DNA from: Escherichia coli | GTDB lineage: Bacteria > Pseudomonadota > Gammaproteobacteria > Enterobacterales > Enterobacteriaceae | Length of the DNA: 64,000 nucleotides | Assembly: GCF_013315695.1 (NCBI RefSeq) | Contig: NZ_CP054353.1 | Strand: one strand, 5' to 3' | Part shown: positions 1-3,000 of the stretch, piece by piece | How the letters are laid out: the number at the start of each line of letters is the position of its first letter | Numbering within the stretch: position 1 is the first letter of the stretch | Made by a program: the position numbers

Positions 1-3000
1 ATTAAAAGATGAGGTTTTCAATATGCCATTAGTTAATGGACGGATACTGCTCGACCGCATTCAGGAAAAACGGGTATTAGCGGGCGCATTTAATACCACC
101 AATCTGGAGACAACGATTTCAATTTTAAACGCCATTGAGCGTTCAGGATTACCCAACTTCATTCAGATTGCGCCCACCAATGCACAACTGTCGGGATACG
201 ATTACATTTATGAAATCGTGAAACGTCACGCTGATAAAATGGATGTTCCGGTCAGTCTTCATCTTGATCACGGGAAAACTCAGGAGGATGTTAAACAGGC
301 GGTGCGCGCGGGCTTTACCTCGGTCATGATTGACGGTGCCGCATTCTCTTTTGAAGAGAATATCGCTTTCACCCAGGAAGCTGTCGATTTCTGTAAATCC
401 TATGGCGTACCGGTTGAAGCGGAGCTGGGGGCGATTCTCGGCAAAGAAGACGATCACGTCAGCGAAGCCGATTGCAAAACGGAACCGGAAAAGGTGAAGA
501 CCTTTGTCGAACGCACCGGTTGCGACATGCTGGCAGTTTCTATTGGTAACGTTCATGGCCTGGACGATATACCGCGGATCGATATCCCCCTGCTGAAGCG
601 CATTGCCGAAGTCAGCCCGGTGCCGCTGGTTATTCACGGCGGCTCCGGTATCGCCCCGGAGATATTACGCAGTTTCGTTAATTATCGCGTCGCTAAAGTG
701 AATATCGCCAGCGATCTGCGCAAAGCGTTTATCACCGCAGTCGGCAAAGCCTATGTGAATAATCACAACGAGGCGAATCTGGCACGAGTGATGGCATCAG
801 CAAAAAACGCCGTCGAGGAAGATGTGTATAGCAAAATCCTGATGATGAATGAGGGGCATCGGTTGATTAGAAAGGCATCTTAAGAGCCACAAAAATATAG
901 CGGCGCAACAGAAATTGTTGGGCCGCTATAAGTTATAAATGATTCAAACGCTCATTTAGCGTTTCAATAATATAAGTATTTACAGAGACTTGTTGCTGCG
1001 CAGCCGCATTATTAAGGCGTTCACTCAGCGATTCTGGATAGCGTAATGTAAAGGTCTTAATCTTTTCTGTACGCGCATACGGCTCAATACCCGCAGCTTT
1101 ACAATCCTCAAGATACTCTCGCAGGGAAAGCTCCCCTTCTTTTTGCAGCCCCTGAATGCTGTCAGAGACAAAATCACAATAACCTGACAAGCCCAGGAAT
1201 TTGCCACGAAATGCATTCAGTTCTGGCACGTAAGTGATAACAGCAGGTTGCCCGGCAATCTCCATAGAGTTTGGCGTCTTCAGTTTGATCATGGTTTTAC
1301 CCCTATACTTAGTAACCAGTCACGCACGCTTTCTACAGCGCCTTTATCGGTATCTGGCGACGGATGAGGCCGATGGAAACACGCAACGCTCATATTTAGT
1401 ATGAACTTACAACGCGAACCTCTTCCTTCCTTAATTTCTCCGCCTAATGCTTTAACCAGTGACTCTATATCAGACCACTTAATCCCTTGAGGAACAGGAG
1501 ATTTAAATATTTGATCCAATGTATTTTTTTGTTTCTTCCGTAAAGCCTGTACCAGGGTTCTCATGGCATGTCCTTATGACTTCACTTTATGACATCAATA
1601 GTATGACATCACAATATGAAGTCAAGTTTCCCTTCCTTACGCCATTGTCCCAATCGTCTTCCTGAATCGCAGCAGTGCGATGGTGAAAAATGCGCCGCCA
1701 ATTGCCATCAGCGTCAGGAACTGCGGCCAGACGATTTCGAATCCGGCACCACGGTAGAGAATGGCCTGCGCGAGGCTGACAAAGTGTGTCGTCGGCATGG
1801 TCAACATAATGTCCTGCACCATCTGCGGCATACTTTCGCGCGGCGTGGAGCCACCGGAAAGCATTTGCAGCGGCAGCAGCACCAGAATCACCAGCAGCCC
1901 CAGTTGCGGCATTGAACGCGCTATCGTCCCCATAAAAATGCCGATTGACGTGGTGGCAAACAGACTGAGCGCCACGCCCAGCATAAACAGCGGGATCGAG
2001 CCTTCAATCGGTACACCCAGTACACCTTTCACCATCAGCACCAGCGATAATCCCGACACCACCAGCACCACCAGCCCCATCGACCAGACCTTTGCCATCA
2101 TGATCTCAAACGGCGTTATCGGCATCACCAGTAAGTGTTCCACCGTGCCGTGTTCACGCTCGCGGATCAGTGCCGATCCGGTCAACACAATCGCCAGCAT
2201 GGTAATGTTGTTGATGATCGCCATCACCCCGCCAAACCACGCGGGATCGAGGTTCGGGTTAAAGCGCATCCGGGTTTCCAGCGATACCAACGGTTCGCTG
2301 TTATCACGGTAGCGCGCGACAAAGCTGTTCACTTCACCGTTGATAATATTCTGGATATACCCGTTGCCGGTAAATGCCTGGCTCATGCGCGTGGCATCGA
2401 CGTTCACCTGAATATCTGGCTGGCGTCCGGCGAGGACATCACGCTGAAAATTAGGCGGAATATTTATCGCGAAGGTATAGCGTCCGGCGTCCAGCCCGGC
2501 ATCCATCTCATCGGCGGTGATCATCTCCGGTGGCAAAAACCACGGGCGATAGAAGCTGTTAACGATCCTGTTCGATAACTGCGATTGATCCATATCGGCA
2601 ATGGCGATCGGCGCGAGGTTCAACGATCCTGGCGTAACGGTCGCTGACGAATACACCGACACCGTAAACGAGAAGACAATCAGCGTCAGCATCGCTTTAT
2701 CACCGAGCAAACTGCGCAACTCTTTGATACCCAGATTAAAAATATTGCGTAAATGGCGCATCATCCCTCCTGTTTTTTCAGCAGCAGGATGCTTAAGCCC
2801 ATCACCAGCGGGATGGCTATCAGCAACGGGATAAAAAGTTGCCACAAATCAGTCAAATCCAGCGCCTTCGAGAACGTCCCGCGGGCAATAGTCAGAAAAT
2901 GACTGGTCGGGTAAACCTCGCCGATCCAACGTCCTGGACCTTCCAGCGAAGCTACCGGATCGATCATCCCGGAAAACTGCGTCGCCGGAATCAACGTGAT

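What the first reader, a model, noticed from the sequence alone, without database searches (positions are those of the whole stretch)
23..883. Class II aldolase at the window edge upstream of the TA pair
A GatY/KbaY-like aldolase lies where K-12 has rhs and H-repeat sequences as I recall. It is probably the last gene of a sugar-phosphate operon extending upstream, implying further accessory carbohydrate genes just outside the window.
Basis: partly seen in the sequence, partly recalled or inferred. Interest (0 to 1): 0.25.

Follow-up and report, generated by a model that had tools for sequence, protein, structure and literature searches.

The report
Aldolase ending an accessory sugar operon
The gene at the window edge is an intact zinc-type (class II) sugar-bisphosphate aldolase, the last gene of a seven-gene sugar uptake and breakdown operon that about 30% of complete E. 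coli genomes carry where K-12 has rhsB; it is an ordinary, already annotated accessory operon whose sugar is still unknown.

Summary
Window 23..883 (+) is an intact 286-aa class II aldolase (Pfam PF01116, E 5.5e-81). It passes NCBIfam NF005943 'class II aldolase' but falls below the GatY, KbaY and FbaA cut-offs, and is 37% identical to KbaY/AgaY.

The window is 100% identical to E. coli MS 21-1. In that genome the aldolase closes a tight same-strand block: GntR/HutC regulator, PTS IIA, IIB, Gat-family IIC, FGGY kinase, HPr-like carrier, aldolase. The block lies between nikR and hicBA-yhhJ, where K-12 has rhsB-yhhH-yrhC-yhhI.

The block occurs in 1637 of 5426 complete E. coli genomes (e.g. ABU 83972, O157:H7, SMS-3-5). 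It is always chromosomal, and differences between strains are mostly synonymous.

The same gene set, in shuffled order and with a shared operator-like motif, occurs in Sodalis, Enterobacter cancerogenus and Enterococcus. A Salmonella/Rahnella variant adds GatD-like dehydrogenases.

In O157:H7 EDL933 the cluster (Z4874-Z4879) is induced in bovine gut contents, and its subsystem annotation is 'unknown carbohydrate utilization cluster'.

Most likely mechanism (inferred): PTS uptake of a ketose, a second phosphorylation by the FGGY kinase, then cleavage to triose phosphates. I found no published substrate. Interest is low.

The parts
10..13 (+). Likely ribosome-binding site (GAGG) 9 nt upstream of the aldolase ATG. 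The window begins inside the 31-nt spacer after the HPr-like gene.
   Evidence: Sequence read directly; the HPr gene ends at L001 19991 and the aldolase starts at L001 20023.
23..883 (+). Class II (zinc) ketose-bisphosphate aldolase, 286 aa; the seventh and last gene of the accessory PTS operon.
   Evidence: PF01116 E 5.5e-81; NF005943 at 556 bits (cut-off 364); Asp82, His83, His178 and His205 conserved. RefSeq WP_001131792.1 'class II aldolase'.
896..930 (.). Stable hairpin between the convergent aldolase and hicB genes; a probable bidirectional terminator. The U-run is clear on the minus strand and weak on the plus strand. The right edge of the operon insert lies inside it, at about 921/922.
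   Evidence: -22.9 kcal/mol (z -5.7) on plus, -20.2 kcal/mol (z -5.2) on minus, followed by UAUUUUUG. In hicBA-only genomes the match starts at query position 39, which is window 922.
933..1292 (-). HicB antitoxin gene. It is a neighbour and not part of the operon; its presence varies independently.
   Evidence: PF05534 E 2.1e-15; distribution.
1289..1564 (-). HicA toxin gene (neighbour).
   Evidence: PF07927 E 2e-09.
1637..2761 (-). yhhJ, the conserved backbone gene that bounds the variable nikR-yhhJ interval on the right.
   Evidence: RefSeq annotation of the identical genome; the K-12 counterpart is b3485.

Best explanation
Window 23-883 encodes a functional class II aldolase, the terminal enzyme of a seven-gene accessory catabolic operon: GntR/HutC repressor, PTS IIA, IIB, Gat-family IIC, FGGY kinase, dedicated HPr, aldolase. 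The operon fills the nikR-yhhJ interval.

Shown: gene content, order, intactness, conservation, distribution, and expression in O157:H7.

Inferred mechanism: an unidentified ketose, most plausibly a ketohexose of the tagatose/psicose/sorbose kind, is taken up and phosphorylated at one end by the Gat-type enzyme II, which the operon's own HPr supplies with phosphate. The FGGY kinase phosphorylates the other end. The aldolase splits the resulting ketose bisphosphate into dihydroxyacetone phosphate and a second triose phosphate. This is the logic of the galactitol and D-tagatose pathways, with an FGGY kinase in place of a PfkA/PfkB-type kinase and no GatZ-like partner.

The GntR protein probably represses the operon from the site TTGTCCATGATTGTCCATAGACAA just upstream of its own gene, and a weak CRP-like site suggests catabolite control.
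For: Operon membership. The window is 100% identical to MS 21-1. Seven co-oriented genes have gaps of 24, 73 and 31 nt and overlaps of 4, 8 and 11 nt. His15 of HPr, the IIA histidine and the IIB cysteine are present.

Functional coupling. The same set (GntR, IIA, IIB, IIC-Gat, FGGY, aldolase, with or without HPr) recurs in different gene orders in Sodalis, Enterobacter cancerogenus and Enterococcus. A Salmonella/Rahnella variant adds a GatD-like dehydrogenase (257.7 bits to the galactitol-1-phosphate 5-dehydrogenase model, below its cut-off of 550), which fits a polyol-phosphate to ketose-phosphate to bisphosphate route.

Maintenance. Differences between strains are mostly synonymous: aldolase 21 synonymous to 1 non-synonymous codon and IIC 33 to 1 against O157:H7. 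All ORFs are intact in the three genomes compared.

Aldolase chemistry. The metal and catalytic residues are conserved, and Arg255 aligns with Arg257 of AgaY; it is Arg or Lys in all homologues aligned. From memory, that residue binds the distal phosphate.

Regulation. An operator-like motif is conserved upstream of the regulator or PTS gene in all six taxa examined. A candidate CRP site would be centred at -41.5 from a start site that I inferred from a TACTAT -10 hexamer.

Expression. Z4874-Z4877 and Z4879 were up 2-4 log2 units in bovine digestive contents relative to M9-glucose (PMC6199705). [quoted passage not shown]
Against: No substrate is known. No operon protein reaches the cut-off of a substrate-specific NCBIfam model, and I found no paper naming the sugar.

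To my knowledge, FGGY kinases are known for free sugars, polyols and sugar acids, not for sugar phosphates, so the proposed second phosphorylation has no precedent.

The kinase and IIA are only 35-36% identical between E. coli and Enterococcus, while IIC is 75% and the aldolase 66%. The kinase may therefore not be strictly orthologous across lineages.

The consensus promoter and terminator scan gave no more hits than shuffled sequence. The CRP site matches only 7 of 10 core positions.

Co-transcription of the aldolase with the upstream genes is inferred from spacing, not measured. Z4878 and Z4880 were not found in the text I could read.
Confidence: 0.6

Rival explanations
1. Liver-type 'fructolysis' order. 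The PTS makes a ketose 1-phosphate, and the aldolase cleaves this monophosphate directly to DHAP plus an unphosphorylated aldehyde such as D- or L-glyceraldehyde. The FGGY kinase then phosphorylates that aldehyde, acting as a triose kinase.
For: The closest solved relatives of the FGGY kinase are glycerol kinases (E about 1e-24), which from general knowledge also accept glyceraldehyde. FGGY enzymes normally act on unphosphorylated substrates. The E. coli, Sodalis, Enterobacter and Enterococcus clusters contain no dehydrogenase or isomerase, so either order is possible.
Against: A basic residue (Arg255, or Lys in other taxa) is kept at the position of AgaY Arg257, which I recall as a distal-phosphate contact. 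In the Salmonella/Rahnella variant, a GatD-like polyol-phosphate dehydrogenase would, by analogy with known enzymes, give a ketose phosphorylated at the end away from the keto group. Such a product needs a C1 kinase before aldol cleavage. Similarity to glycerol kinase is weak, and the best NCBIfam hit is xylulokinase, far below its cut-off.
Confidence: 0.2
2. It is a true GatY/KbaY-type tagatose-1,6-bisphosphate aldolase belonging to a second galactitol or N-acetylgalactosamine-like pathway. Some automatic annotations and the transcriptome paper's label 'galactitol transporter' imply this.
For: The IIA, IIB and IIC proteins hit the galactitol PTS models best. The best-scoring solved structure is KbaY/AgaY (1gvf, E 3.6e-48). 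Some sources name the protein 'tagatose 1,6-diphosphate aldolase GatY/KbaY'.
Against: Scores fall below the GatY subfamily (239 against 383), KbaY (181.8 against 542) and tagatose-bisphosphate aldolase (219.3 against 443.55) cut-offs. Identity to KbaY is 37%. The block has no GatZ/KbaZ gene and no galactitol-1-phosphate dehydrogenase. IIC scores 476 against a cut-off of 542 for the Gat subfamily model.
Confidence: 0.12
3. The cluster is a decaying or silent remnant with no present function, an island on its way to being lost as in K-12.
For: It is absent from about 70% of complete E. coli genomes. The interval is a hotspot with at least four alternative contents. In ABU 83972 the last codons of the aldolase are replaced by sequence that continues into the repeat-bearing spacer K-12 has upstream of yhhJ.
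Against: All seven ORFs are intact and of equal length in the three genomes compared, except the aldolase 3' end in ABU 83972, and substitutions are mostly synonymous. 1635 of the 1637 matching genomes cover at least 80% of the block. Transcripts are induced in gut contents in O157:H7.
Confidence: 0.05

Closest known systems
E. coli galactitol pathway (gatYZABCDR) and the Klebsiella oxytoca D-tagatose PTS pathway
   Same: A Gat-family enzyme II (separate IIA, IIB and IIC) is encoded together with a PF01116 class II aldolase. The overall logic of PTS phosphorylation, second phosphorylation and aldol cleavage to triose phosphates is the same.
   Different: The E. coli block has no GatZ-like partner and no GatD dehydrogenase. 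The kinase is FGGY-type rather than PfkA/PfkB-type. The regulator is GntR/HutC-type rather than DeoR-type. The operon carries its own HPr. The aldolase fails the GatY and KbaY model cut-offs.
KbaY/AgaY tagatose-1,6-bisphosphate aldolase (PDB 1gvf)
   Same: It aligns over the full length (residues 2-281) with the same metal-binding histidines and catalytic aspartate.
   Different: Identity is only 37%. The gene context is different, and there is no KbaZ.
NCBIfam NF005943 (PRK07998) 'class II aldolase'
   Same: The protein is a member: 556 bits against a cut-off of 364, aligned end to end.
   Different: The family name carries no substrate; it labels a group that has not been characterised biochemically.
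YdjI of E. coli K-12 (PDB 6ofu), a class II aldolase of an orphan sugar cluster
   Same: It belongs to the same Pfam family and likewise sits in a cryptic carbohydrate cluster with its own kinase (one search lists it at E 9.4e-43).
   Different: The cluster is different: from memory, ydj has a PfkB kinase, dehydrogenases and a non-PTS transporter. YdjI is a more distant relative than KbaY.
EDL933 genes Z4874-Z4879 (O157:H7-specific relative to K-12)
   Same: This is the same operon at 96.6% nucleotide identity. The GntR accession WP_001301676.1 links Z4874 to it.
   Different: None of substance. The published label 'galactitol transporter' is an annotation, not a tested function.

Membership tests
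Class II fructose/ketose-bisphosphate aldolase (Pfam PF01116) | Significant full-length match to the family profile | tested here: met
   E 5.5e-81; residues 7-276 match profile positions 4-273 of 277.
Class II fructose/ketose-bisphosphate aldolase (Pfam PF01116) | Catalytic Asp-His pair and two further metal-binding histidines | tested here: met
   Asp82, His83, His178 and His205 align with Asp82, His83, His180 and His208 of 1gvf. They are invariant in 7 homologues.
Class II fructose/ketose-bisphosphate aldolase (Pfam PF01116) | Zn-dependent aldol cleavage of a ketose phosphate | not testable with these tools
   This needs an enzyme assay.
GatY / KbaY tagatose-1,6-bisphosphate aldolase | Score above the curated model cut-offs | tested here: not met
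   GatY subfamily 239 against 383; KbaY 181.8 against 542; TIGR01858 219.3 against 443.55.
GatY / KbaY tagatose-1,6-bisphosphate aldolase | GatZ/KbaZ partner gene encoded alongside | tested here: not met
   The seven-gene block and its flanks contain no such gene.
GatY / KbaY tagatose-1,6-bisphosphate aldolase | Preference for tagatose-1,6-bisphosphate | not testable with these tools
   This needs kinetics with FBP, TBP and the psicose and sorbose bisphosphates.
NCBIfam NF005943 (PRK07998) class II aldolase equivalog | Score above the curated cut-off, aligned end to end | tested here: met
   556.1 bits against 364; residues 1-282 match profile positions 1-282 of 283.
PTS-dependent sugar catabolic operon (Gat family) | IIA, IIB and IIC genes with phosphorylation-site residues, co-oriented with the catabolic enzymes and a regulator | tested here: met
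   PF00359, PF02302 and PF03611; the IIA histidine, the IIB cysteine and HPr His15 are present; layout. IIC is below the Gat subfamily cut-off (476 against 542).
PTS-dependent sugar catabolic operon (Gat family) | Conserved co-occurrence of the genes across species | tested here: met
   The same set occurs in Sodalis, E. cancerogenus, Enterococcus, Salmonella and Rahnella in different orders.
PTS-dependent sugar catabolic operon (Gat family) | Single transcript that includes the aldolase | not tested
   Inferred only, from the 31-nt spacer and the hairpin after the aldolase. Published RNA-seq covers Z4874-77 and Z4879.

The most novel reading that the evidence does not exclude
The operon encodes an uncharacterised pathway for a rare ketose. 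In it, an FGGY-family kinase phosphorylates an already phosphorylated sugar, a substrate class not known for that family to my knowledge, and a GatZ-independent class II aldolase cleaves the product. This would give B2/E/F-type E. coli (as I assign ABU 83972, O157:H7 and SMS-3-5), some plant- and insect-associated Enterobacterales and some enterococci a gut or plant nutrient niche that K-12-like strains lack.
Probability: 0.35. Interest if true: 0.45.

Novelty: new member of a known kind. Interest (0 to 1): 0.2.

Why it matters
The practical value is modest. It assigns a gene at a window edge to its operon. It also shows that the nikR-yhhJ interval is a polymorphic hotspot holding a maintained and expressed carbohydrate cluster of unknown substrate in about 30% of complete E. 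coli genomes, including O157:H7 and ABU 83972. Identifying the sugar would fill one of the remaining 'unknown carbohydrate utilization clusters' in pathogenic and commensal E. coli, and could reveal an unusual FGGY kinase activity. Nothing here challenges current understanding.

Tried and rejected
- **Literature searches.** Searches for nikR/yhhJ/aldolase, 'OI-139', combinations of FGGY, galactitol, class II aldolase and HPr, and guessed tags Z4878-Z4883 as whole words found nothing relevant.
- **EDL933 tags.** A prefix search for Z487/Z488 plus O157 finally mapped the EDL933 tags.
- **D-tagatose evolution paper.** PMC10101011 concerns the fru and aga systems of laboratory E. coli, not this operon.
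- **FGGY family survey.** PMC3245297 does not mention PTS-linked members.
- **Promoter and terminator scan.** Counts equalled shuffled sequence, so the scan was not used as evidence. The hairpin was instead tested by folding.
- **Database cluster look-up.** It returned only generic names and oddly lumped the aldolase with the FGGY kinase.
- **Composition as a sign of foreign origin.** The operon is 49.4% GC against 54.7% and 48.0% in the flanks, which is not informative.
- **Not run.** Structure prediction and fold search, because 37% full-length identity to a solved aldolase already fixes the fold and these tools would not reveal the substrate.
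Full report
**Observation.** Window 23..883 on the plus strand is an open reading frame of 286 codons. 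It starts with ATG, ends with TAA and has GAGG nine bases upstream. It matches Pfam PF01116, the class II fructose-bisphosphate aldolase family, almost end to end (E 5.5e-81). It passes the curated cut-off of NCBIfam NF005943/PRK07998 'class II aldolase' (556 bits against 364). It scores below the cut-offs of every substrate-named model: GatY subfamily 239 against 383, KbaY 181.8 against 542, and the class II FBA models at about 233-237 against 343-423. The best-scoring solved structure is KbaY/AgaY, 1gvf (E 3.6e-48), at 37% identity over 279 aligned residues. In that alignment Asp82-His83, His178 and His205 match the catalytic aspartate and the three metal-binding histidines. All four are invariant in homologues from E. 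coli, Sodalis, Salmonella, Enterococcus and Listeria. The gene is real and looks catalytically competent.

**Where the window comes from, and what lies upstream.** Window 1-1700 is 100% identical to the chromosome of E. coli MS 21-1, a human colon isolate (NZ_CP146670.1). The annotated 20 kb upstream (locus L001) reads as follows:
- nikABCDE-nikR;
- then seven co-oriented genes: GntR-family regulator (L001 15277-16023), PTS IIA (16048-16521), IIB (16518-16799), Gat-family IIC (16873-18231), FGGY-family kinase (18224-19732), an HPr-family carrier (19722-19991) and the aldolase (20023-20883, which is window 23-883);
- then the convergent hicB-hicA pair, followed by yhhJ-rbbA-yhiI.

Gaps within the block are 24, 73 and 31 nt, and three junctions overlap by 4, 8 and 11 nt. 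Pfam and NCBIfam confirm each assignment: UTRA+GntR, EIIA_2, PTS_IIB, EIIC-GAT, FGGY_N+C and PTS-HPr. None of these proteins reaches the cut-off of a substrate-specific model. The phosphorylation-site residues are present: His15 of HPr, the IIA histidine and the IIB cysteine. The aldolase is the last gene of a sugar-phosphate operon, and PTS and kinase genes lie just outside the window.

**The K-12 comparison.** The three configurations compared diverge immediately after the nikR stop codon.

**Distribution within E. coli.** The 5.85-kb block is present in 1637 of 5426 complete E. coli genomes. It is always chromosomal, and only one genome shows a second matching place. Carriers include ABU 83972, the type strain ATCC 11775, JJ1887, O157:H7, O55:H7 and O145 strains, and SMS-3-5. 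From my own knowledge these belong to phylogroups B2, E and F. hicBA varies independently and is found in 2073 genomes. At least four interval contents exist:
- operon plus hicBA, as in this window and O157:H7; about 581 genomes;
- operon alone, as in ABU 83972;
- hicBA alone directly after nikR;
- rhsB-yhhI, as in K-12.

In ABU 83972 the last five aldolase codons are replaced, so the protein ends GHRLGK rather than GHRLIRKAS. The replacement sequence continues into the repeat-bearing spacer that K-12 has upstream of yhhJ. The Sodalis orthologue ends ...IRKAS, so the 286-aa form is probably the older one. Escherichia albertii carries the kinase, which hints that the operon is old in the genus and was lost in some lineages. 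That last point is inference.

**Is the operon maintained and expressed?** Against ABU 83972 and O157:H7, all seven genes are intact and of equal length, apart from the aldolase 3' end noted above. Differing codons are mostly synonymous. Against O157:H7 the counts of synonymous to non-synonymous codons are 21 to 1 for the aldolase, 33 to 1 for IIC and 53 to 10 for the kinase. The EDL933 counterparts are Z4874 (GntR, the same accession WP_001301676.1 as), Z4875-Z4877 (IIA, IIB, IIC) and Z4879 (HPr). In RNA-seq of EDL933 incubated in bovine rumen, small-intestine and rectum contents, these genes were up by about 2-4 log2 units relative to M9-glucose. The authors called them a 'galactitol transporter'. 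Their supplementary table carries the subsystem name 'unknown carbohydrate utilization cluster' (PMC6199705). [quoted passage not shown] I found no paper that identifies the substrate.

**Comparative genomics.** The aldolase family is found at 79-90% identity in Sodalis, Izhakiella, Pantoea, Erwinia, Rahnella, Nissabacter and some Salmonella enterica. It is found at about 60-72% identity in Enterobacter cancerogenus, many Enterococcus species, Listeria immobilis and a Clostridium-like organism. The neighbourhoods are as follows:
- Sodalis: GntR-IIA-IIB-IIC-FGGY-aldolase-HPr.
- E. cancerogenus: GntR-aldolase-IIA-IIB-IIC-FGGY-HPr.
- Enterococcus: GntR-aldolase-IIA-IIB-IIC-FGGY.
- Salmonella and Rahnella: IIA-IIB-IIC-FGGY-dehydrogenase, then GntR-aldolase-HPr-SurE-dehydrogenase.

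The second Salmonella dehydrogenase scores best against the galactitol-1-phosphate 5-dehydrogenase model, at 257.7 bits and below the cut-off of 550. A gene set that stays together while its order is reshuffled across two phyla is strong evidence that the PTS, the kinase and the aldolase work on one pathway.

Identities between E. coli and Enterococcus are uneven: IIC 75%, IIB 68%, aldolase 66%, GntR 56%, IIA 36% and FGGY 35%. The transporter core and the aldolase are the conserved heart of the system, and the kinase has diverged or been replaced.

An operator-like element, TTGTnCATnnTTGTnnATAGACAA, lies upstream of the regulator gene, or of IIA in the split variant, in all six taxa examined. 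Its core palindrome, GTCnATAGAC, resembles what I recall of HutC-type operators. In E. coli it lies at L001 15230-15253, just downstream of a TACTAT hexamer. A weak CRP-like site (TGTGA-N6-TCGAT, 7 of 10 core positions) would be centred at -41.5 from the start site inferred from that hexamer. These regulatory assignments are tentative.

**Downstream end.** A hairpin at window 896-930 folds at -22.9 kcal/mol (z -5.7) on the plus strand. On the minus strand it folds at -20.2 kcal/mol (z -5.2) and is followed by a U-run. It probably terminates hicBA and, less efficiently, the operon. Compared with genomes that have hicBA alone, the right edge of the operon insert falls inside this hairpin, at about window 921/922.

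**Mechanism.** The shown facts are the parts list and its conservation. The E. coli, Sodalis, Enterobacter and Enterococcus clusters contain no dehydrogenase, isomerase or hydrolase. An FBA-type aldolase needs a 2-ketose carrying a C1 phosphate. The simplest reading is therefore that the substrate is itself a ketose:
1. The PTS phosphorylates one end on entry.
2. The FGGY kinase phosphorylates the other end.
3. The aldolase cleaves the bisphosphate to DHAP and a second triose phosphate.

The variant with a GatD-like dehydrogenase fits the same scheme starting one step earlier, from a polyol. By analogy with known polyol-phosphate dehydrogenases, it would yield a ketose phosphorylated far from the keto group, which then requires a C1 kinase. 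A conserved basic residue (Arg255, or Lys in other taxa) at the position of AgaY Arg257 is compatible with a distal phosphate site; the role of that residue is from memory, not tested here.

The main rival is a fructolysis-like order, in which a monophosphate is cleaved and the aldehyde product is then phosphorylated. It would suit the usual preference of FGGY enzymes for unphosphorylated substrates, and I cannot exclude it. I give the general scheme about 0.6 and the rival about 0.2. The identity of the sugar is open.

**Comparison and verdict.** The system works like the galactitol and D-tagatose PTS pathways. However, the aldolase is not a GatY/KbaY orthologue: the model cut-offs are not met and there is no GatZ/KbaZ. 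It is a member of PF01116 and of the unnamed NCBIfam group NF005943. The gene and its operon are already annotated in many public genomes and appear in O157:H7 transcriptome papers under their EDL933 locus tags. The finding is therefore correct but ordinary. The remaining interest is the unknown substrate and the unusual pairing of an FGGY kinase with a PTS and a class II aldolase.

Noticed in passing
window 884-1636 (hicB 933-1292, hicA 1289-1564): The hicBA pair varies independently of the operon. It is in 2073 of 5426 genomes, against 1637 for the operon. In many genomes it sits directly after nikR with no operon (L011, L012). The nikR-yhhJ interval therefore has at least four alternative contents, and all compared configurations diverge exactly at the nikR stop codon.
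   Followed up: partly
L006 9225-9420 (E. coli ABU 83972), aligned with window 800-960: In ABU 83972 the aldolase is 283 aa and ends GHRLGK instead of GHRLIRKAS. The replacement sequence continues into the repeat-bearing spacer that K-12 has upstream of yhhJ. Sodalis keeps ...IRKAS, so the shorter form looks derived.
   Followed up: partly
L001 15230-15253 (outside the window, 24 nt upstream of the GntR gene); also L003, L005, L008, L009, L010: An operator-like motif, TTGTnCATnnTTGTnnATAGACAA, is conserved upstream of the regulator or PTS gene from E. coli to Enterococcus. In E. coli a weak CRP-like site would be centred at -41.5 from a start site inferred from a TACTAT hexamer.
   Followed up: partly
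window 19264-27521: A second accessory carbohydrate cluster lies between dtpB and rsmJ. It is annotated as sorbitol-6-phosphate dehydrogenase subunit, PTS mannitol-type IICB and IIA, DeoR regulator, mannitol dehydrogenase, another HPr-family protein, glycerol dehydrogenase, HAD hydrolase, 6-phospho-3-hexuloisomerase and ribulose-phosphate 3-epimerase. I recall K-12 lacking this cluster here, but I did not check.
   Followed up: no
window 8810-11176: A DUF4049 gene, a paralogue of the neighbouring DUF4049 gene that corresponds to K-12 yhiJ, is split by an IS1A insertion (IS1 at 9099-9796) and is annotated as two pseudogene fragments.
   Followed up: no
window 34348-35637: arsB of the arsRBC operon is annotated as a pseudogene with an internal stop.
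   Followed up: no
window 41659-50611: The chu/shu haem uptake and utilisation cluster (chuA, chuS, chuT, hutW, hutX, chuY, shuU and the ATPase gene) sits between yhiD and dctR. From general knowledge this marks non-A/B1 E. coli. A second IS1 copy lies nearby at 39350-40047.
   Followed up: no
protein database cluster returned: The cluster holding this aldolase in the protein collection (grouped at 90% identity) also contains the 502-aa FGGY kinase, and a kinase is its representative. This is probably a clustering artefact or was seeded by a fused or mis-called gene.
   Followed up: no
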